Source of the DNA: Candidatus Woesearchaeota archaeon
GTDB lineage: Archaea; Nanobdellota; Nanobdellia; Woesearchaeales; ARS49
Length of the DNA: 64,000 nt
Assembly (NCBI GenBank): GCA_019323015.1
Contig: JAHWHY010000004.1
Location: 10,907-74,906 of the forward strand
Direction: 5' to 3'
The position numbers and the translations under genes were made by a program. A model generated the notes under the pieces. That model made no database searches. It was not told the origin of the DNA and was given only the letters and a program-made list of their open reading frames with translations. Positions 15,467 through 23,247 of this stretch are shown here, in pieces (within the stretch, counting starts at the first letter, position 1; each line of letters opens with the position of its first letter).

Positions 15467-17548
15467 ATGCTTAAAATAGCCAAGATAAAGAAGAGAGATG
15501 GTTCCTTAGCAGACTTTAAGCCAGAAAAGATCACAGAGGTCCTTGAAAAAGCTATTTCTGATGCAAAAATAAAAGATGGCAGGCTGGCAAAGAAACTTAC
15601 AGGACAGATAGTCAAGACGATGGAGAGTGCATTTGGGACAAAATTAATGCCCAGAACACAAGATGTAGAAGATGTCTTGCTAAATACGCTTAGTGCAAAC
15701 AAGAAATTAACACCAATTGCAGATGCTTATACTGCTTATAAAAAAGAGCACAAGGAGAGTATCGGCTTTAGGACAGTTCATGGAGTTCGGGATGATATCG
15801 GCCTGAGCCAAAATGCAATAAAAGTGCTTGCAAAAAGATATTTGCTTAGAAATGACCAAGGCAAAATAATCGAGACGCCTGCGCGAATGTTCCAACGAGT
15901 TGCAAAGACTGTTGCGCAGGCAGAGACAAACTACAAAAAAAGCACATCAAAAGCTGAAAAAGAATTTTATGAAGTTCTATCTAGATTAGAGTTTTTGCCA
16001 AATTCTCCAACACTAATGAATGCAGGAACAGATATCGGACAATTAGCTGCATGCTTTGTTCTCCCTGTAGAAGACTCTATACGCAGTATTTTTCGCGCTG
16101 TTGAAAACATGGCAATAATACACCAGACTGGAGGGGGGACTGGATTTAGTTTTTCTAAAATAAGACCAAAATATGACATTGTCAAGACAACCAAAGGAAA
16201 AGCATCAGGACCAATATCATTCATGACAGTATTTGACAAGACAACTGAAGTGATAAAACAAGGAGGCAAAAGAAGAGGCGCAAACATGGGAATACTTCAT
16301 GTAAGCCACCCAGACATTGTTGAATTCATAAACTCAAAAACAGAAGAAGGCATGCTGAAAAATTTCAATATATCTGTTGCAGTAACTGAAGATTTCATGG
16401 AAGCAGTAAATAAGAATAAAGAGTTCTGGCTAATCAATCCACGCACAAAACAAAAAATAAAAATGGTGAGCGCCAAAATAATATTTGAACTGCTCACAAA
16501 AGCAGCATGGGACCACGGCGATCCAGGAATTATTTTTATCGACGAGATAAACGAGAAAAATCCAACACCGCAGGCAGGCGTGATTGAAAGCACAAATCCT
16601 TGCGGTGAGCAGCCATTGCTTCCTTATGAAAGCTGCAACCTCGGCTCTATAAATCTTTCTAAGATGGTGCGCAACAGCAAACCAGACTGGACAAAATTGA
16701 AAAAAACAGTACGCGCTGCTGTTCATTTTCTAGACAATGTAATTGATGTTAACAAATTTCCAATATCTGAAATAGAGGAGAAAACAAAAGCAAACAGAAA
16801 AATAGGCCTTGGTGTGATGGGATTTGCAGACATGCTTGTCAAGCTGAAAATGCCTTATGATTCTGAAAAAGCAATACAATTTGCAGAAAAGCTGATGAAA
16901 TTTATTACAGCCGAAGCAAGGAAGAAGTCTGAGGAACTGGGAAAGGAAAGAGGAAATTTTCCGAACTTTGAAAAAAGTGTTTATGCTAAAAAACACAAAA
17001 ACATGCGAAATGCGACAGTCACGACCCTTGCACCGACAGGAAGCATAAGCATATTTGCAGATACGACATCAGGCATAGAGCCATTTTTTGCAATAACTTA
17101 TGTTCGCGAGATTCTGGACCACACTTCCATGCTAGAAGTGAACAAATTATTTGAGGAAGTTGCGCAGCAGAGAGGATTTTACACAAAAGACCTTTTTGCC
17201 AAAATAGCCAAAGAAGGAAGCGTGCAAAAAGTGAAAGGAATTCCAGGCGATATCAAAAAAATATTCAAGACAGCACTAGAGATAAAGCCAGAATGGCATG
17301 TCAAGATGCAGGCAGCGTTTCAGAAGTATACTGATAATGCTGTCAGCAAAACAGTAAATCTGTCAGAAGATGCAAAACCAGAAGATGTTCAGAAAGTATA
17401 TCTGCTTGCTCACAAACTAAAATGCAAAGGATTAACAGTGTATAGGTATGGATCAAAAAAAGAGCAAGTACTTTACATTGGCAAGGAAAGCTTTAGAAAA
17501 GCAGAAGAATATGCAGGATCCTGCCCGCACAGAACCTGCGAGTACTAA
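15467..17548 (+). CDS. nrdJ: Class II (adenosylcobalamin-dependent) ribonucleoside-triphosphate/diphosphate reductase with N-terminal ATP-cone
   Basis: ATP-cone KIKKRDGSLADF. Class II active-site block NPCGEQPLLPYESCNLGSINL, plus TLAPTGSIS. ATG at 15467 is preferred over the TTG at 15434. Confidence 0.85.
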   Translation: MLKIAKIKKRDGSLADFKPEKITEVLEKAISDAKIKDGRLAKKLTGQIVKTMESAFGTKLMPRTQDVEDVLLNTLSANKKLTPIADAYTAYKKEHKESIGFRTVHGVRDDIGLSQNAIKVLAKRYLLRNDQGKIIETPARMFQRVAKTVAQAETNYKKSTSKAEKEFYEVLSRLEFLPNSPTLMNAGTDIGQLAACFVLPVEDSIRSIFRAVENMAIIHQTGGGTGFSFSKIRPKYDIVKTTKGKASGPISFMTVFDKTTEVIKQGGKRRGANMGILHVSHPDIVEFINSKTEEGMLKNFNISVAVTEDFMEAVNKNKEFWLINPRTKQKIKMVSAKIIFELLTKAAWDHGDPGIIFIDEINEKNPTPQAGVIESTNPCGEQPLLPYESCNLGSINLSKMVRNSKPDWTKLKKTVRAAVHFLDNVIDVNKFPISEIEEKTKANRKIGLGVMGFADMLVKLKMPYDSEKAIQFAEKLMKFITAEARKKSEELGKERGNFPNFEKSVYAKKHKNMRNATVTTLAPTGSISIFADTTSGIEPFFAITYVREILDHTSMLEVNKLFEEVAQQRGFYTKDLFAKIAKEGSVQKVKGIPGDIKKIFKTALEIKPEWHVKMQAAFQKYTDNAVSKTVNLSEDAKPEDVQKVYLLAHKLKCKGLTVYRYGSKKEQVLYIGKESFRKAEEYAGSCPHRTCEY

Positions 17549-17549
17549 A

Positions 17550-18059
17550 ATGGGAAAAATATATTTATGGACTGGAAACGGATGGGGAAAAACTACTTCT
17601 GCCATTGGGGCTGCGATGCGGGCAGTTGGGCATGGTTATAAAGTCATTGTAATACAATTCATGAAAGGATGGGGAGATAAAGTGGGGGAATATAAGATTC
17701 GTAAGAAAATAAAAAATTATGAAATTTATCAATTTGGCAGGAAAGGATGGGTTGACCTGAAAAAGCCCACTAAAAAAGACAAGGAACTTGCTCAAAAAGG
17801 GTTGAAGTTTGCTTATGAAATTCTTAAGAAAAAACCATTTATGCTGATACTTGATGAAATAAATCTAGCAGTTAAGATAGGGCTGCTTGATGAGAAAGAA
17901 GTACTGAAATTTCTTAGTAAAATTCCTGCAAAAACAACTGTTTATTTGACAGGCAGGAATGCTACACCTGGCTTACGCAAAAAAGCAAATTATGTGAATG
18001 AAGTGAGGATGTTAAAGGGCCCTAAGAAATTAACTGGCGAGAAAGGAATAGATTACTGA
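17550..18059 (+). CDS. cobO: Cob(I)yrinic acid a,c-diamide / corrinoid adenosyltransferase (CobO/BtuR type)
   Basis: MGKIYLWTGNGWGKTTSAIGAAMRAVGHGYKVIVIQFMKG (P-loop) and C-terminal ...KGIDY. The ATG lies 1 nt after the nrdJ stop. The longer track ORF (17448) overlaps nrdJ and is rejected. Confidence 0.85.
   Translation: MGKIYLWTGNGWGKTTSAIGAAMRAVGHGYKVIVIQFMKGWGDKVGEYKIRKKIKNYEIYQFGRKGWVDLKKPTKKDKELAQKGLKFAYEILKKKPFMLILDEINLAVKIGLLDEKEVLKFLSKIPAKTTVYLTGRNATPGLRKKANYVNEVRMLKGPKKLTGEKGIDY
17918..17937 (+). repeat. 20-nt direct repeat copy 1 (TAAAATTCCTGCAAAAACAA) inside cobO; putative att core
   Basis: Perfect identity with 21569-21588, in the same reading frame of cobO-like sequence. Confidence 0.7.
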
Positions 18060-18199
18060 ATCTTCTTTTTTAGTTCTTTAAGTTCTTCTTCTAATTCTTT
18101 TTTAGAACTCTTTGATTTTTCAGGAATAGACTCTATGTCTTCAAAATCTTTCTGAAGTTCTGGCTCTTCCTCTGGAAAATCAAATTCAGTTTCTTCCAT
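18053..18199 (-). CDS. Possible small acidic protein (48 aa)
   Basis: My translation: MEETEFDFPEEEPELQKDFEDIESIPEKSKSSKKELEEELKELKKKIQ. No clear SD, and it overlaps the cobO stop by 7 nt, so support is weak. Confidence 0.2.
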   Translation of the reverse strand: MEETEFDFPEEEPELQKDFEDIESIPEKSKSSKKELEEELKELKKKIQ

Positions 18200-18297
18200 A
18201 ACAAGAGAGGCATTTTTAAAATATTTAAATGTTGTTGTTTTATAGTATACTAAACTTTATAAACAGGACAGCATTTAAACAAACAACAGGTGGGAAA

Positions 18298-21200
18298 ATG
18301 CATAAATTTACACCAGCAAGTCTAGAGAGAATAATTGAACGGCTAAACAATGCTGTCACGCATCTTAAGAAAGAAAAGAAAGAGACAGAACAGGCAGGCA
18401 AAACATTTGATTTTGACTATGTAATAACCTTATTTGAAGAGACACACCTGAAAGACTACAGAAGAATTCTTGCAAAACTAAACAGGTGGGGGTATTCTTC
18501 AGAGACAGTAGAAGAAGTGCGGCTGAGAGACGTAGTTGAACACGTAATGTCCCCATTAAACCAGGAAAATCAGCTTTCAGATGCAGCAAAAATTCTCGCA
18601 AAATACATAGTGAACCCTGATGAAACAGGAAAAAGAAAAAAACAATCAGATTATGTAGGCCTAGAGAGGCTCACGCTCATAGTATCCAACTCAAAAAACA
18701 AAAACATTTTTGACGCCTGGGCAAAAGAATGGGAAATAGACAATTTCTATGACAAGGACCTCGGAGTCAAGAAACAATTCAGGTGCGACGCCTGCGGAAA
18801 CCAATCCTCAAAAAACGTTACAATCATAAATGCTGAAACAGGCTCAAAACTATCATTCAATTACCAGTGCTTTAACAATCTCACAGCAGACCTTGGAAAA
18901 CTCGGCGGTGTGATAAGCTCAGTAGAGCATGCAAAAAAAGAGACCTCTGATGCGCAGGCGCGCAAGTTCCAGGAACTGCTTGAAAAAGCGCTTGATAAAA
19001 TGGAATTTGAAGAGGCAGCAGGAAGAATAAAAAAAGAACTGCCAGAAGAATACAGAATAGTTGCAGACCCAGAGGCATGGCTGGAACAACTAGGCAGCAT
19101 GTACGAGCACTTCAGGCAGGATATAGACTTCACAACAGGAAGCAAGGAATTTGAGCCGCATGCAAGCCTGAGAACATGGAGCAGGATAAGATTTGAAGAT
19201 GAAAACGTGCCTGAACCAGTAAGGCTTGCGCACGAGAAATTCTTAAGCTTGTCAAAAATGACGCTTGCAGAAAGACTGCTGTTCATACAAGACTACAAAC
19301 TGAACAGGGCAGTGAGCATCTTAGAGAACAAAGACATGCTGGACGACCTGTTTTTGCTGGAATTACAGGGAGAAGCCAACCTTGATCCAATACGGCACTT
19401 GTTCAAGTCAAGAATAACAAAAACAGACTCAGATAAGATTGCAGAATTCAGGTCAGATTTCTTAGACACAAGAAGAGCACACAACTCTGCGCTAATAAAA
19501 AAATACGGGCCAGAGATAATTGACAGCAGCCTCAGGATAGCATTAACTTACTTCTTCAGAGACAGAGCAGGCTGGGCAGAAGCATACCAAAGACAAGAAA
19601 AATTCCTTGATGCAAGCCTTTCAAAAAAAGATTATGCAATAATAAACAGGATATGCGAACGCCTTACACTGGGGTTCCCACAGGAGATGCCTATTGATTA
19701 TGATGCTGAAGCAGTTCAAAGAATCCTGCTTGACAAAACACCCATGCTCATTGCAAAAGAATGGATGCGCGAGCTAGCAGTAATCCAGAGAAAACTGGAT
19801 TATGGAAAAGCAAAAAGCGACGAGACCAGCAAATTGCATGGAGAGTATATCCCAGCAGAAGAGTTCCACGATTTCACAGACATAGACAGAAGATTCAGCC
19901 TCTCAACAGTGATTGATAAGATAGCGCACAGCTATGCCAGAACCTCTGCACACATGAACTTTGTTGAACAAGAACTGCCTGGATTAAAAAAAGCAGTTGA
20001 ACACAGCCTGATTGACAGGGCACTTACTTTTCACAAAGACACAGCATATGAATTAAGGCTGACAGATGAACAGGCAAGGACACTGAAACAAATAAGCAAT
20101 GAAATACGAAAACTTGACAAAAGAATAAAAGCAATAAAGGTTCCAAGGCAGGCAAGCGAGGAAAAAACAAAGCTCAACAGAAAACGTGATGAGCTGGTGA
20201 CACAGAGAGACGAGCTGATAATCAGGAGATATCTTTCACTAAAAGGAGATTACCTTCAGTACACCCTAAGGAATGTAAATGGAGAGAGAATAAACCAACA
20301 TAACTCTGTTTTAGGCTGTACGCTTAAGACAATATTTGACGGCGTGAGGGACTTCAAGCCAGCTTCTGAATATGGAGACCTTCCTGAAAAGATAGCAGAG
20401 ATAGCAGACATAATCGAGAAGTCACGAATATTTCTTCATGTGCCAAACCTTCCTGAATACTACTTTAATCCAGAGACACTGCGCAAAATAAAATATGTTG
20501 ATGAAGAAGGTGTTGCAAAACTGTCAAGAATACACGGGCTGTTGACAGCACCAACAAAAGCACTTGAAGATGCAATAAAAGCAATTGAAAAAAGCGAAAA
20601 CCCTGCTGAAGTAATTGCCAAGATGAAGGCATACGCTGAAAAAAATGTGCAATTACTAAAAAACCTCTGGACCCCGCAGTTAATGCAGATAGGGTTAAAG
20701 GAAAAACACAAATCAAAAAGCAAAGGAGTAGAGTTTTATGCTTTTGACAGTTTACAAAGAGAATACAACAAAATAAAAGGATGCATTACACTTGATGGCC
20801 TGGTTGATGAACTGCGTGAAAACAAGGAATTCGAGAAAGCTGTAACAGGCCCAGAAGAATATTTTCTTGGCATGCTGAATGAAGTGACAAGAAGCCACTC
20901 GCTTTTCAAAAAAATAATAGAGATTGTAAAATCAGACACAGACCTGTCAAACATATATGTTGCTGGCGAAATAGTAAAAACTGCAAGACAGACCATAGAA
21001 GACATGCCTTATTTTCCATCTCAAATAAGAAGAAAAAAACTATTTGAAGACAAATCAGAAAAATACATACGAGAAACTTTTGTGCAGAGCGTGTTTGAAA
21101 AAATACAGGAACAGCCGGAAAAAGAAAGACAGGCATACTGGAGATTGATTAATGGCCAAAAGATGTATTTCAGCAGAAAAGAAGGTGAAAAAGGATGGAA

Positions 21201-21546
21201 AGAAGGGCCAAAATATGGAATGGATATACCAGATGAAAAATACTGGCAGTCTGACCTCTTGAGATTCTTAGATGGTACAACACCTGGCGAGCTCAGGGGA
21301 TGGAAAAGAAGACCAAGACGATGGGAAAGACGCCCCAAATGGGTTGAGTGGGATTTCAGGCACGTTGTGTATGTAGCAAACGGCACTGCTGCGAAATTCT
21401 CATACAGGCGCAATCTTGAGGAAAAACTCAGGACGCATGCACAAGATAATTCTGTAAGATTAAGCGAAGATCAAGCAGAAAAATTATTCATACCAGTAGC
21501 AAGAAAATTTGAAGCACTAGTTAATGAAGTTTTAAAAGAAATGTAA
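18298..21546 (+). CDS. Large orphan protein (1,083 aa from the ATG at 18298), mostly helical, K/E/R-rich
   Basis: Long uninterrupted ORF on the purine-rich strand. BRE/TATA-like AAACTTTATAAACA at 18252-18265 and SD AGGTGGG 4 nt before the ATG at 18298. One CxxC...C patch (FRCDACGNQ...YQCF). No family recognised. Confidence 0.7.
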   Translation: MHKFTPASLERIIERLNNAVTHLKKEKKETEQAGKTFDFDYVITLFEETHLKDYRRILAKLNRWGYSSETVEEVRLRDVVEHVMSPLNQENQLSDAAKILAKYIVNPDETGKRKKQSDYVGLERLTLIVSNSKNKNIFDAWAKEWEIDNFYDKDLGVKKQFRCDACGNQSSKNVTIINAETGSKLSFNYQCFNNLTADLGKLGGVISSVEHAKKETSDAQARKFQELLEKALDKMEFEEAAGRIKKELPEEYRIVADPEAWLEQLGSMYEHFRQDIDFTTGSKEFEPHASLRTWSRIRFEDENVPEPVRLAHEKFLSLSKMTLAERLLFIQDYKLNRAVSILENKDMLDDLFLLELQGEANLDPIRHLFKSRITKTDSDKIAEFRSDFLDTRRAHNSALIKKYGPEIIDSSLRIALTYFFRDRAGWAEAYQRQEKFLDASLSKKDYAIINRICERLTLGFPQEMPIDYDAEAVQRILLDKTPMLIAKEWMRELAVIQRKLDYGKAKSDETSKLHGEYIPAEEFHDFTDIDRRFSLSTVIDKIAHSYARTSAHMNFVEQELPGLKKAVEHSLIDRALTFHKDTAYELRLTDEQARTLKQISNEIRKLDKRIKAIKVPRQASEEKTKLNRKRDELVTQRDELIIRRYLSLKGDYLQYTLRNVNGERINQHNSVLGCTLKTIFDGVRDFKPASEYGDLPEKIAEIADIIEKSRIFLHVPNLPEYYFNPETLRKIKYVDEEGVAKLSRIHGLLTAPTKALEDAIKAIEKSENPAEVIAKMKAYAEKNVQLLKNLWTPQLMQIGLKEKHKSKSKGVEFYAFDSLQREYNKIKGCITLDGLVDELRENKEFEKAVTGPEEYFLGMLNEVTRSHSLFKKIIEIVKSDTDLSNIYVAGEIVKTARQTIEDMPYFPSQIRRKKLFEDKSEKYIRETFVQSVFEKIQEQPEKERQAYWRLINGQKMYFSRKEGEKGWKEGPKYGMDIPDEKYWQSDLLRFLDGTTPGELRGWKRRPRRWERRPKWVEWDFRHVVYVANGTAAKFSYRRNLEEKLRTHAQDNSVRLSEDQAEKLFIPVARKFEALVNEVLKEM

Positions 21547-21560
21547 AAAGAAGAGATAAA

Positions 21561-21706
21561 TTCTTAAATAAAATTCCTGCAAAAACAATTGTTTACCTTA
21601 CTGGCCGAAATGCTGCTGCCTGATTGCGTAAGAAATCAGATTTTGTTAATGAAATTGGTTTTGTATTCAACTTTTATGATAAGAAAGAAAAAAATTATAT
21701 ATATTT
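21561..21706 (+). pseudogene. cobO: Displaced C-terminal fragment of a cobO gene, with an in-frame TGA at 21621
   Basis: Translates FLNKIPAKTIVYLTGRNAAA*LRKKSDFVNEIGFVFNFYDKKEKNYIYF, versus the intact gene FLSKIPAKTTVYLTGRNATPGLRKKANYVNEVRMLKGPKKLTGEKGIDY. Confidence 0.7.
21569..21588 (+). repeat. 20-nt direct repeat copy 2; putative att core
   Basis: Identical to 17918-17937. Confidence 0.7.
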
Positions 21707-22219
21707 CAGGTCTCTTGGATCATCTGGAACCCTTCTACTTGTCGGATTGTTTGTATTTGTTCCTTCAGTTTTAAATGTTGCAATCAGCTTTTTATTTGTT
21801 TCATCAACAAGCAAAAGACGCTGCAAATCTGTTGGAATTTGACGAATTCCTACTGCGAAAAATGTTGATTTTTTAAGGGAATCTAATCTTTGCAGTGGCT
21901 CCTGTTGTGAACAGAAAACGAAATAATTCTCTGTATTTTGCGTAGTTGTGCCTGCAGTGTACTGAACATGCGCGATATCATAATATGTTGGGTTTGCTGT
22001 AAACGGAAATGGTTTTCCTGTCTCTGAAGGAATGGTCGGCTTTCCTATTTTAGCTGCTTTTTTGGTTACAAGAGAACATCCTTTATACATGTCTTCACTA
22101 ATGCCTTCAAGGTCTGTGAATACTATGTTCTCTTCTTTATCAGTAATAACAACACGCATATCTTTGCAAGTGTCAACTTCTTTTACCAGAATATGCACTG
22201 TAATTTTGTCGTCTATCAT
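21695..22219 (-). CDS. Hypothetical protein (174 aa)
   Basis: ORF with coding-like composition. No recognisable motif. Confidence 0.5.
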   Translation of the reverse strand: MIDDKITVHILVKEVDTCKDMRVVITDKEENIVFTDLEGISEDMYKGCSLVTKKAAKIGKPTIPSETGKPFPFTANPTYYDIAHVQYTAGTTTQNTENYFVFCSQQEPLQRLDSLKKSTFFAVGIRQIPTDLQRLLLVDETNKKLIATFKTEGTNTNNPTSRRVPDDPRDLKYI

Positions 22220-22277
22220 TTTAGCCTACCTCGTCTATCTCTGTTTTGATGAAAAATAAAGTAAAGAAAGATTCTTA

Positions 22278-23174
22278 TTAACGAACCTTTGCCTTAAGCT
22301 TAAGCTCCCTGATTATGTCCTTGCACCTGTTTCTCAGGGTTGTTTCTGTAATACCAGAAACTTCTGCAACCTCTCTCTGAGTTCTTTTCTCTTTCAGCAT
22401 CAATCCTGCAATGTAAAGAGTAGATGCAGCAACACTAACCGGGCTCAAGCCAGATGTCAATCCTTTCTTCTTTAACTGTTCAGCAAGCTTAACAGCCTTT
22501 GTCTGAACCTTTGGAGAAAGCTTCAGTGCACTTGCAAATCTTGCTGTATAGTCAATAGGATTGATTGGTATGATTTTAATGTTAAGCTCTCTTAAAAGCA
22601 TTTTATATGTTTTTGCTATAATCTTAACATCTGTTCCAGTTAATTCAGAGAATTCTTTCAAAGATCTTGCAATGTCATTGACCCTGCAAGCAATATACAG
22701 AGAACCAATAACAATGTTTTCTATGCTTCTCTTTAGCGTCAGGTTTTTCTCAGCTGCTTTTCTATAGATTTCAGCTGCTTCTTTCTCAACTCTGTTAGGA
22801 ATATTCAGCTGGTTAGATATAAGCTTAAGATTTGTTAAAGCATGCTTCAGGTTTTGCTCAAAACTAGAGCTTGTCCAAGCGTTCTTTTTCTTAATTCTGC
22901 CAATCATGGCTTTTGTCTTGGTGTTTAATTTGGCCAGGTCAGACCTGTTTCCAATGCTTGTAGCCAGGTTATCTGCAACCCTTGGGTCAAAAGGAGCACC
23001 AGACCTGCTGTTCTTTTCAACACCTTCCATATCAAAAGACCTAGTCTCATCTGTAAAATCGACCATAGCATCCTCTATAACGAAGTTACAATTCCTGCAA
23101 ACAACTTCCCCATTTTTCTTATTTGTAAGGAAATGCTTGCATCCACAATCTGGACAACTTTCTGTCATTAACAT
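22278..23174 (-). CDS. tfb: Transcription initiation factor IIB (TFB)
   Basis: N-terminal Zn ribbon CPDCGC...CRNC, B-linker, and two cyclin repeats; 298 aa. Confidence 0.9.
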   Translation of the reverse strand: MLMTESCPDCGCKHFLTNKKNGEVVCRNCNFVIEDAMVDFTDETRSFDMEGVEKNSRSGAPFDPRVADNLATSIGNRSDLAKLNTKTKAMIGRIKKKNAWTSSSFEQNLKHALTNLKLISNQLNIPNRVEKEAAEIYRKAAEKNLTLKRSIENIVIGSLYIACRVNDIARSLKEFSELTGTDVKIIAKTYKMLLRELNIKIIPINPIDYTARFASALKLSPKVQTKAVKLAEQLKKKGLTSGLSPVSVAASTLYIAGLMLKEKRTQREVAEVSGITETTLRNRCKDIIRELKLKAKVR

Positions 23175-23247
23175 TTTATTTCAGCCTCCACTCACTATAC
23201 ACGAATCTGACTCTTTTTACCCCTTCCAGTAGCTTTAAAAGGGTTAC

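What the first reader, a model, noticed from the sequence alone, without database searches (positions are those of the whole stretch)
17918..21706. cobO 3' end is duplicated 3.6 kb downstream: footprint of an insertion carrying one 1,083-aa orphan gene and no recognisable integrase
Seen: the intact cobO ends at 18059. At 21561-21706 the + strand again encodes the last ~48 codons of a CobO (FLNKIPAKTIVYLTGRNAAA*LRKKSDFVNEIGF, versus FLSKIPAKTTVYLTGRNATPGLRKKANYVNEVRM in the intact gene), and this copy is broken by an in-frame TGA at 21621. The two copies share a 20-nt perfect core (TAAAATTCCTGCAAAAACAA; 17918-17937 and 21569-21588). Outside the core they differ mainly at synonymous or conservative positions, so this is not a recent tandem duplication. 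Established: integrative elements that target the 3' end of a gene bring a replacement 3' end and leave the displaced original as a decaying fragment bounded by the att core. Inference: 17938-21568 is an inserted segment. Its cargo is a doubtful 48-codon acidic ORF and a 1,083-aa helical K/E-rich protein with its own BRE/TATA and SD. I recognise no tyrosine/serine recombinase, DDE, HUH or Cas1-like motif. The mobilising activity is therefore either novel, supplied in trans, or lost.
Basis: partly seen in the sequence, partly recalled or inferred. Interest (0 to 1): 0.75.

Follow-up and report, generated by a model that had tools for sequence, protein, structure and literature searches.

The report
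Recombination scar beside cobO, not mobile element
The stray piece of a cobO gene is real, but it is most likely a leftover from a recombination event that merged two versions of a highly variable gap between conserved genes in a Woesearchaeota genome; nothing indicates a self-mobile element carrying the big orphan gene.

Summary
Window 21558-21656 is a gap-free, in-frame copy of cobO codons 120-152: 72/96 nt (next best in the window 48/96), 24/33 aa, TGA at 21621, with a 20-nt identical run.

The integrative-element reading does not hold.
- The 1,082-aa gene (BIG, 18298-21546) sits in the same slot (cobO, small acidic ORF, BIG, TFB) in relatives at 51% and 37% identity, with no flanking repeats.
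- The 'doubtful' acidic ORF is a conserved host gene. It is present next to cobO in relatives whose slot is empty.
- 20-nt identical runs also occur between orthologous cobO genes of different species at the same place, so the 'core' is not distinctive.
- Right after the fragment, 21648-21697 is a remnant of the acidic ORF's promoter, of the allele type seen in empty-slot and 174-aa-gene relatives. It is contiguous with the 174-aa gene, as in L004.

The locus is therefore a composite of a 'BIG-type' and a '174-type' allele, joined just after the BIG stop codon, followed by a ~215-nt deletion. Favoured direction: BIG is resident, and the cobO piece arrived with the 174-aa gene. BIG remains a very rare orphan family with no known domain. 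Interest is low to moderate.

The parts
15467..17548 (+). Class II (ATP-cone) ribonucleotide reductase; conserved left flank of the locus
   Evidence: PF02867 E 1.7e-145, PF00317, PF03477. Present left of cobO in all relatives.
17550..18059 (+). Intact cobO (ATP:cob(I)alamin adenosyltransferase), 169 aa; resident copy
   Evidence: PF02572 E 1.2e-45. 93% aa identical to L011. About 80-90% nt identity to L011 with no breakpoint through the 3' end.
17918..17937 (+). Left copy of the 20-nt identical run (codons KIPAKT); not a demonstrable att core
   Evidence: Runs of the same length occur between orthologous cobO genes of different species.
18053..18199 (-). Conserved 48-aa acidic ORF, convergent with and overlapping the cobO stop; a host gene, not cargo
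   Evidence: tblastn hits at 62-84% aa in L001, L004, L011, L012, L014, L019-L021, including relatives whose slot is empty.
18200..18297 (.). Divergent promoter region of 'BIG-type' alleles: acidic-ORF TATA (about 18221-18230) and BIG promoter TACTAAACTTTATAAAC (18248-18264), SD GGTGG
   Evidence: The same 19-mer lies upstream of BIG in L001. The 11-mer TACTAAACTTT occurs in 665 kb searched only here, in L001 and in the empty slot of L014.
18298..21546 (+). BIG: 1,082-aa helical K/E-rich orphan protein with an N-terminal CxxCG...YxC motif; resident occupant of the slot
   Evidence: Orthologues at 51% (L001) and 37% (L002) in the same position. Only 6 hits in 1.84e9 representative proteins. No Pfam, NCBIfam, PHROG, PADLOC or PDB match.
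21547..21557 (+). Illegitimate junction with A-rich microhomology AAAGAAG (21547-21553; cobO has the same 7-mer at 17895-17901; the L001 BIG 3' flank reads TGAAAAGAAAC)
   Evidence: Read directly. With a 1-nt deletion this stretch reads KEEI, continuing the cobO homology. This part is inference.
21558..21656 (+). cobO' pseudogene fragment (cobO codons 120-152), TGA at 21621-21623
   Evidence: 72/96 nt gap-free versus 48 next best. BLASTP 24/33, E 9e-16. Roughly equidistant (72-76/99) from cobO of the window, L011, L013 and L022.
21648..21694 (.). Remnant of a second acidic-ORF promoter of the 'empty/174-type' allele, with its TATA degraded (TTTAAAT to TTCAACT). The ~215 nt once between it and cobO' (end of cobO' plus a second acidic ORF) has been deleted, between AATGAAAT and GAAATGAT.
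   Evidence: Local alignment to the region upstream of the acidic ORF in L025 and L019 scores 29.5 and 30, against 11-12 +/- 2 for shuffles. Against window copy 1 the score is 11, which is chance level. The same junction with the 3' end of the 174-aa gene is seen in L004.
21695..22219 (-). 174-aa gene of unknown function; a slot cassette shared with L004 (78%) and L005 (70%)
   Evidence: No Pfam, NCBIfam, PHROG or PADLOC hit. AF2 pLDDT 45.
22220..22277 (.). Leader of the 174-aa gene plus the A-rich TFB-proximal spacer (gatgaaaaataaagtaaag, 22248-22266); right edge of the variable slot
   Evidence: Homologous spacer in all relatives. In L021 the same sequence is duplicated as a 21-nt direct repeat around another cassette.
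22278..23174 (-). TFB (transcription factor B); conserved right flank and the likely homologous anchor
   Evidence: PF00382 E 3e-37. 65-96% aa identity in all relatives. No mosaic structure detected.

Best explanation
The cobO fragment is most likely a scar of illegitimate recombination in a hypervariable intergenic slot of a Candidatus Woesearchaeota genome; I found no evidence that it is the att site of a mobile element.

Across relatives the framework is constant: RNR, cobO, a small acidic ORF, then a slot, then TFB, S7 and S12. The slot is empty in some relatives. In others it holds BIG, a remote BIG relative, a 174-aa gene, a 509-aa gene or a 116-aa gene. The window carries a merger of two allele types:
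- a 'BIG-type' allele from the left flank to just past the BIG stop codon;
- a '174-type' allele that starts in the middle of a foreign cobO (codon ~117-120) and ran through cobO's end, a second acidic ORF, its promoter and the 174-aa gene to TFB.

Favoured sequence of events (inferred):
1. BIG was already resident.
2. A DNA fragment from a related lineage with a 174-type allele was integrated. Homologous recombination in or near the conserved TFB fixed one end. A microhomology join (AAAGAAG) just after the BIG stop fixed the other. This is the pattern of homology-facilitated illegitimate recombination.
3. The redundant end of cobO' and the second acidic ORF (~215 nt) were then deleted between short repeats.
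4. The orphan promoter lost its TATA box, and cobO' picked up a stop codon and probably a 1-nt deletion.

Shown: the composite structure, the synteny of BIG, the empty sites, and the lack of any recombinase signature. Inferred: the direction of transfer, the anchor, and the microhomology mechanism.
For: - BIG orthologues sit in the same slot in L001 (51%) and L002 (37%), and a remote relative (BIG2) in L015 and L016. P0009, a match to the BIG profile at E 1e-6, looks by eye like a relative of BIG2 (not formally compared). hhalign of the BIG profile against BIG2 gives E 1e-4, probability 51-55%, at collinear positions.
- No cobO-like repeats flank BIG or BIG2 in any of these loci.
- Empty slots in L011, L014, L019, L022 and L025 retain cobO's 3' end, the acidic ORF and its promoter directly next to TFB.
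- Window 21648-21697 aligns to the acidic-ORF promoter of empty-slot relatives at about 9 sd above shuffles. It does not align to window copy 1. It abuts the 174-aa gene as in L004.
- cobO' is about as far from the window's own cobO (73/99) as cobO genes of different species are from each other (64-79/99). Mismatches are distributed 9/3/14 over codon positions, which suggests most divergence accrued under purifying selection in another lineage. Its 7 private changes are spread 3/1/3, as expected for a short period of neutral decay.
- On a TFB tree the window groups with L011 and L014 (91% bootstrap), both with empty slots. The carriers of the 174-aa gene (L004, L005) sit in another clade (80%).
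- The BIG-promoter 11-mer survives in the empty slot of L014, so a BIG-type allele is native to the window's clade.
- The intact cobO 3' end and the acidic ORF show no identity breakpoint against L011.
- HFIR and '3'-end displacement' leaving orphaned 3' gene pieces are described in bacteria (PMC3240628; PMC5361080 and references therein).
Against: - No recombination breakpoint is visible in TFB. The window is closest to L011 and L014 along the whole gene, so the homologous anchor is not demonstrated.
- No sampled genome has the postulated donor arrangement of an intact cobO, acidic ORF and 174-aa gene in a row. L004 has the acidic ORF and the 174-aa gene but lacks cobO, and the L005 contig ends too early.
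- Diagnostic sites in cobO' are mixed (9 like window/L011, 7 like L013), so the donor lineage is not identified.
- The AAAGAAG microhomology is A-rich and could be chance.
- L011, one of the closest relatives, shows no BIG remnant, so BIG residency in the window lineage rests on L014 and the outgroups.
- Whether Woesearchaeota can take up DNA or perform HFIR has not been shown.
Confidence: 0.55

Rival explanations
1. Same composite, opposite direction. The window lineage had a 174-type allele. A BIG-type segment (cobO 3' part, acidic ORF, BIG) came in from a close relative, anchored by homology in RNR or the cobO 5' part, and joined illegitimately inside the resident cobO. The native cobO 3' end was displaced downstream as cobO'. 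This keeps the first reader's geometry but needs no integrase and no mobile element.
For: - The structure is symmetrical, and both directions give the same product.
- The closest relatives L011 and L014 lack BIG.
- After discounting its 7 private changes, cobO' is about as close to L011 as the intact cobO 3' end is.
- This is the geometry described for Rhs and T6SS '3'-end displacement' (PMC5361080).
Against: - It needs two transfers: first the 174-type allele from the other clade, then BIG from an unsampled BIG-bearing sister of L011.
- The intact cobO shares the derived ANY motif with L011, whereas cobO' has the DF state of other lineages.
- L014's slot keeps a BIG-promoter remnant, so BIG-type alleles were already in this clade.
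- No identity breakpoint is seen in cobO or RNR against L011.
Confidence: 0.22
2. First reader's model. 17938-21568 is (or was) a site-specific integrative element that targets the 3' end of cobO, brings a replacement 3' end, and carries BIG. It would be mobilised by a novel activity of BIG, by a recombinase acting in trans, or by one since lost.
For: - A 20-nt identical run lies near the start of the duplication. With random placement of mismatches, P is about 0.03.
- BIG has a patchy distribution among relatives.
- BIG is an orphan with a Cys motif and no assigned function.
Against: - No recombinase signature appears in any library.
- BIG orthologues sit at the same site without repeats in L001 and L002.
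- The 'element' would have to include the conserved host acidic ORF.
- Empty sites do not have the predicted boundaries.
- cobO homology extends upstream of the core and, beyond the deletion, resumes in the host promoter.
- The core is no more identical than orthologue pairs are.
- There are no hits on viral contigs.
Confidence: 0.05
3. A purely intragenomic tandem duplication of the segment from the cobO 3' part to BIG, followed by deletion of most of the second copy and long decay of what remained.
For: Direct repeats 3,651 nt apart in the same orientation.
Against: - The promoter remnant of copy 2 is of a different allele type from copy 1 and does not align to it (score 11, chance level). 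It is contiguous with the 174-aa gene as in L004.
- The 25% divergence shows a purifying-selection pattern (9/3/14), which does not fit decay of a duplicate.
Confidence: 0.05

Closest known systems
Homology-facilitated illegitimate recombination (HFIR) in bacteria (de Vries & Wackernagel 2002 and Prudhomme et al. 2002, as cited in PMC5361080; Escherichia coli: PMC3240628)
   Same: Foreign DNA is fixed by one homologous anchor and one microhomology join. This yields an insertion with a truncated hitch-hiking gene piece at the illegitimate end.
   Different: Here it is inferred from comparative genomics in a DPANN archaeon. The anchor breakpoint is not resolved, and DNA uptake and recombination have not been shown in this group.
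3'-end (C-terminal) displacement at Rhs, CDI and T6SS effector-immunity loci, which leaves strings of orphaned 3' gene fragments (PMC5361080; Jackson et al. 2009, cited there)
   Same: An orphaned, diverged 3' fragment of a gene lies downstream of the intact copy and marks an allele-replacement event at a variable locus with conserved flanks.
   Different: cobO is a housekeeping cofactor enzyme, not a polymorphic toxin. There is a single fragment and no array. In the favoured reading the fragment is foreign rather than the displaced native end.
Integrative elements and proviruses that insert into the 3' end of tRNA or protein genes and carry a replacement 3' end (my own knowledge; e.g. archaeal pNOB8-type integration, bacterial genomic islands)
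   Same: A direct repeat of a gene's 3' part brackets about 3.6 kb. One copy is intact and one is truncated.
   Different: There is no integrase and no distinctive core. The bracketed genes are syntenic host genes. Empty sites in relatives have different boundaries.
Flexible or replacement genomic islands between conserved core genes (my own knowledge of the concept)
   Same: A fixed slot between conserved genes (acidic ORF and TFB) holds different, unrelated genes in closely related genomes.
   Different: The scale is very small: single-gene cassettes of 0.4-3.3 kb. In one relative (L021) a 21-nt direct repeat flanks the cassette.

Membership tests
Site-specific integrative element in a gene's 3' end | Encodes (or sits next to) a tyrosine/serine recombinase, DDE, HUH or Cas1-like enzyme | tested here: not met
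   BIG, the acidic ORF and the 174-aa protein have no significant hit in Pfam, NCBIfam, PHROGs, PADLOC or PDB sequences. The AF2 model is too poor for a fold search (pLDDT 41).
Site-specific integrative element in a gene's 3' end | Identical att core at both ends, beyond what sequence conservation explains | tested here: not met
   The 20-nt run exists, but 4 of 78 orthologous cobO pairs have runs of 20 nt or more, and 17 have 15 nt or more, often at the same codons.
Site-specific integrative element in a gene's 3' end | Empty sites in relatives with boundaries at the core (cobO followed directly by the right flank) | tested here: not met
   Empty-slot relatives keep cobO's 3' end plus the acidic ORF plus its promoter next to TFB. 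Boundaries are at the promoter and the A-rich spacer, not in cobO.
Site-specific integrative element in a gene's 3' end | Homologous elements elsewhere are also flanked by the split target and repeats | tested here: not met
   L001 and L002 (BIG) and L015 and L016 (BIG2) have no cobO fragment and no flanking direct repeat.
Site-specific integrative element in a gene's 3' end | Excision to a circular form | not testable with these tools
   This needs reads or PCR. No read data are accessible here.
HFIR-type / 3'-end-displacement recombination scar | Locus is a composite of two allele types found separately in relatives | tested here: met
   BIG-type promoter plus BIG as in L001. cobO' plus 174-type promoter remnant plus the 174-aa gene as in L004 and in the empty-slot relatives.
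HFIR-type / 3'-end-displacement recombination scar | Short microhomology at the illegitimate junction | tested here: inconclusive
   AAAGAAG occurs at 21547-21553, in cobO at 17895-17901, and as AAAGAA after the BIG stop in L001. It is A-rich, so chance is not excluded.
HFIR-type / 3'-end-displacement recombination scar | Homologous anchor with a detectable recombination tract on the other side | tested here: inconclusive
   TFB is conserved enough (81-88% nt), but sliding-window identity shows no mosaic.
HFIR-type / 3'-end-displacement recombination scar | Orphan fragment diverged as a functional gene in another lineage | tested here: met
   Codon-position mismatches are 9/3/14. The fragment is equidistant from several species' cobO. 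It has only 7 private changes.
CobA/CobO/BtuR adenosyltransferase (PF02572) | Significant match to the family profile | tested here: met
   Intact gene: E 1.2e-45. Fragment: the only Pfam hit is PF02572, positions 120-153, E 0.008, and BLASTP to cobO gives E 9e-16. The fragment lacks the P-loop and the last 17 codons and carries a stop, so it is a pseudogene piece.
Tandem segmental duplication | Second copy collinear with, and derived from, the first | tested here: not met
   Beyond cobO', copy 2 matches the promoters of relatives, not copy 1.

The most novel reading that the evidence does not exclude
The slot between the acidic-ORF promoter and TFB might be a dedicated landing site for single-gene cassettes in these DPANN archaea, served by an unrecognised site-specific mechanism. 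Three things point that way: a 402-nt cassette in L021 is flanked by an exact 21-nt direct repeat of the A-rich spacer; the 174-aa gene in L004 and in the window borders the same sequence; and the content differs among near relatives. BIG, from an extremely rare orphan family that carries a Cys motif and is tied to this slot, could have a role in that traffic. The cobO fragment would then be collateral of such an insertion.
Probability: 0.08. Interest if true: 0.65.

Novelty: new member of a known kind. Interest (0 to 1): 0.25.

Why it matters
The practical lesson is a caution. A duplicated gene 3' end with an identical 'core' and no integrase between the copies is not enough to call a new kind of mobile element. 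Synteny in relatives and a control for conservation of the 'core' settle the matter.

What remains of interest is modest:
- It is an inferred example, from comparative genomics alone, of inter-lineage allele mixing by illegitimate recombination in Woesearchaeota. These are DPANN archaea for which I know of no experimental data on recombination or DNA uptake.
- A small hypervariable slot sits next to core transcription and translation genes.
- BIG is a very rare 1,000-aa orphan family (6 hits in 1.84 billion representative proteins) that stays linked to a conserved acidic mini-ORF.

Tried and rejected
- AlphaFold2 of BIG with the only 3 available sequences gave pLDDT 40.8 and pTM 0.27. The 174-aa protein gave pLDDT 45.3. 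Both are unusable, so no fold search was run.
- A profile search with a 9-sequence alignment of the BIG superfamily returned nothing new.
- BIG-profile scans of viral contigs and of JGI metagenomes found no relative.
- PADLOC gave only a weak, sub-threshold Csa3 match for BIG (E 0.0053) and nothing for the other four. Pfam on all superfamily members and a PDB profile search gave nothing meaningful.
- A generic local alignment of the L014 slot to the BIG 5' region was not significant (13.5 versus 11.7 +/- 2). The BIG-loss argument for L014 rests only on the uniqueness of the 11-mer TACTAAACTTT.
- A possible decayed cobO' next to the 174-aa gene in L005 was not significant upstream of the promoter remnant (z about 1.5), and that contig ends there.
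- A mosaic or breakpoint in TFB or in cobO and RNR against L011 was sought and not found.
- The donor could not be assigned from diagnostic sites (9 versus 7).
- The 116-aa cassette protein of L021 shows no detectable homology to the 174-aa protein.
- MAFFT placed the tail 21657-21694 against the end of cobO. That placement was rejected because the local alignment to the relatives' promoter is far better.

Full report
**Context.** The window is from a Candidatus Woesearchaeota (DPANN archaea) genome. The large protein is identical to KY338_05255 of GCA_019323035.1. The local gene order is:
- class II ribonucleotide reductase (15467-17548, +)
- cobO (17550-18059, +)
- a 48-aa acidic ORF (18053-18199, -)
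- BIG (18298-21546, +)
- the cobO-like fragment
- a 174-aa ORF (21695-22219, -)
- TFB (22278-23174, -)
- S7, S12, NusA, L7Ae and the RNA polymerase subunits

**Observation.** It is real.
- Window 17907-18002 and 21558-21653 align gap-free at 72/96 nt. The best other 96-mer on either strand of the window reaches 48/96 (background mean 26, sd 4.6).
- The copy is in the cobO frame with TGA at 21621. BLASTP gives 24/33 identities, E 9e-16. PF02572 is the only Pfam family it hits (E 0.008).
- The 20-nt identical run is at 17918-17937 / 21569-21588.
- Five assemblies from different sources are identical over 17400-23200, so the arrangement is not an assembly chimera.
- Corrections: homology to cobO stops at residue 152 of 169, so only 33 codons are cobO-derived. 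BIG is 1,082 aa from ATG 18298. The acidic ORF is a real, conserved gene.

**What BIG is.**
- It matches nothing in Pfam, NCBIfam, PHROGs or PDB sequences. PADLOC gave only a weak, sub-threshold Csa3 match (E 0.0053).
- A search of 5.8 billion proteins finds only itself and two orthologues, P0002 at 51% and P0003 at 37%.
- A profile search that read 1.84 billion representatives finds six proteins in all. One of them, P0009 (E 1e-6), looks by eye like a relative of the 1,035/1,045-aa proteins of L015 and L016 (not formally compared). Direct hhalign of the BIG profile against those proteins gives E 1e-4 and probability 51-55% at collinear positions.
- By eye, members share an N-terminal CxxCG...(Y/M)xC motif.
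- There are no relatives on viral contigs.
- AlphaFold2 with the three available sequences gave pLDDT 41, so no fold comparison is meaningful.
- Nothing suggests a recombinase, but the function is unknown.

**Comparative anatomy of the locus.** I looked up the contigs encoding the homologues. I also anchored scans of GTDB genomes and JGI metagenomes on TFB and mapped the window's proteins onto all loci. The framework RNR, cobO, acidic ORF, [slot], TFB, S7, S12 is constant. The slot varies:
- empty in L011, L014, L019, L022 and L025
- BIG in L001 and L002
- a remote BIG relative in L015 and L016
- a 509-aa gene in L012, L013, L017 and L018
- a 116-aa gene in L020/L021
- the 174-aa gene alone in L004 and L005
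- BIG plus cobO' plus the 174-aa gene only in the window's species

L004 and L020/L021 lack cobO altogether. No cobO fragment or flanking direct repeat accompanies BIG in L001 or L002, or the BIG relative in L015 or L016.

**Allele types.** The intergenic sequences show two recognisable versions of the region upstream of the acidic ORF.
- In empty-slot and 174-type loci it reads gtatttaaattttRtgataagaaaKaaaaa, followed by either the spacer ttaagtaaagacagg and TFB, or the 3' end of the 174-aa gene (L004).
- In BIG-type loci (window copy 1, L001) it reads tatttaaWtKttgttgt...TATACTAAACTTTATAAAC, followed by BIG.

Window 21648-21697, directly after cobO', aligns to the first type. Scores are 29.5 against L025 and 30 against L019, with shuffles at 11-12 +/- 2. 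It does not align to the window's own copy 1 (score 11, chance level). Its TATA box is degraded (TTTAAAT to TTCAACT), and it abuts the 174-aa gene exactly as in L004.

The right-hand repeat unit was therefore once cobO 3' part, acidic ORF and promoter of a 174-type allele. About 215 nt (the end of cobO' and the second acidic ORF) were later deleted between AATGAAAT and GAAATGAT. A repeat unit of this kind is a stretch of host locus, not an att site. It also rules out a simple tandem duplication of the window's own sequence.

**The 'core'.** Among 78 pairs of orthologous cobO segments from different species, 4 have identical runs of 20 nt or more and 17 have runs of 15 nt or more. Several lie at the same PAKTTVY codons, for example 21 nt between the window and L011. 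The 20-nt run is therefore what local conservation gives. cobO homology also extends upstream of it, gap-free to 21558 and, with a 1-nt deletion, to 21547, right after the BIG stop. There the 7-mer AAAGAAG is shared with cobO (17895-17901), and AAAGAA follows the BIG stop in L001. I read this as the illegitimate junction. That reading is inference.

**Origin of cobO'.**
- It is 73/99 identical to the window's cobO, 72 to L011, 76 to L013/L018 and 72 to L022. Functional orthologues differ from each other by similar amounts (64-79/99).
- Mismatches to the window's cobO fall 9/3/14 on codon positions. This is the signature of divergence under purifying selection in separate lineages.
- Its seven private changes are spread 3/1/3, as expected for a short neutral phase.
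- cobO' is therefore a piece of another lineage's functional cobO that became a pseudogene fairly recently.

**Direction of transfer.**
- A TFB neighbour-joining tree groups the window with L011 and L014 (91% bootstrap), both with empty slots. L004 and L005, which carry the 174-aa gene, group with L013 and L021 (80%). L001, L015/L016 and L002 are outgroups.
- The BIG-promoter 11-mer TACTAAACTTT occurs in 665 kb of loci only at the BIG promoters of the window and L001, and at the equivalent place in the empty slot of L014. L014 therefore lost BIG, and a BIG-type allele belongs to the window's clade.
- The intact cobO 3' end and the acidic ORF are closest to L011, with no identity breakpoint. 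The intact cobO shares the derived ANY motif with L011, whereas cobO' has the DF state of other lineages.
- Most parsimonious reading: BIG is resident, and a fragment from a 174-type relative was integrated between BIG and TFB. That fragment ran from cobO codon ~117 through the acidic ORF, its promoter and the 174-aa gene towards TFB. Homology on the TFB side and a microhomology join on the other would fix it, as in homology-facilitated illegitimate recombination (PMC3240628; model and references in PMC5361080).
- The reverse direction (BIG segment incoming, native cobO 3' end displaced, as in Rhs/T6SS 3'-end displacement; PMC5361080) gives the same product and is not excluded. It needs two transfers and an unsampled donor.
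- No breakpoint was found in TFB, and no sampled genome has the exact donor arrangement. The direction therefore remains an inference.

**Verdict.** The fragment is a genuine pseudogene piece and a genuine footprint of recombination. The segment between the repeats is not an integrative element, and BIG is not its cargo. This is an ordinary kind of scar, a new instance of a known process, in a small hypervariable slot. The residual curiosities are the rarity of the BIG family and the cassette-like turnover of the slot, including an exact 21-nt direct repeat around a one-gene cassette in L021.

Noticed in passing
L021:8385-8807 (JGI Ga0180432_10009550); compare window 22248-22277 and L004:1227-1310: A 402-nt cassette with one 116-aa ORF is flanked by an exact 21-nt direct repeat ACTTAATTTTTTATTTTCATT. 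This is the A-rich spacer that is single-copy next to TFB in empty-slot relatives. The 174-aa gene in L004 and the window borders the same sequence and shares the leader CATTaaaacaga. It suggests repeated single-gene insertion, or promoter duplication, at one site.
   Followed up: partly
window 18053-18199 (-): The 48-aa acidic ORF (MEETEFDFPEEEPELQKDF...) is conserved at 62-84% aa identity next to cobO or RNR in the relatives where it was detected, whatever the slot holds. In L015 and L016 it is extended to 133-153 aa with E/D-rich repeats. It has no family assignment.
   Followed up: partly
L004:1887-2155; L021:8853-11091: Two lineages keep the class II (adenosylcobalamin-type) RNR and the acidic ORF but have no cobO between them. 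Their RNR C-terminus is shorter (…YVGGCxTCHY) than in the window (…YIGKESFRKAEEYAGSCPHRTCEY).
   Followed up: no
L015:14454-15257 (-); L016:11302-12069 (-): A 255-267-aa protein with a DNA primase small-subunit domain (PF01896, E 9e-7) lies between cobO and the acidic ORF in the two genomes that carry the remote BIG relative.
   Followed up: no
L012:10949-12478; L013:6890-8422; also L017, L018: A 509-510-aa protein occupies the slot in four relatives. By eye it has a SWIM-like Cys/His motif (CTCQDAFW...HAICKH), but it has no Pfam or PADLOC hit.
   Followed up: no
window 17448-17548: The longest cobO ORF (from ATG 17448) overlaps the last 100 nt of RNR. Gene callers on identical contigs start cobO at 17550 (169 aa) or at 17511 (182 aa). 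The orthologue alignment supports MGKIYLWTG at 17550.
   Followed up: partly
L013, L015 (GTDB records CAZXEZ010000038.1, CAYGYR010000003.1): These contigs are titled 'uncultured Methanosarcinales archaeon', but they carry the Woesearchaeota-type locus with 78-93% TFB identity to the window. They are probably mislabelled bins.
   Followed up: no
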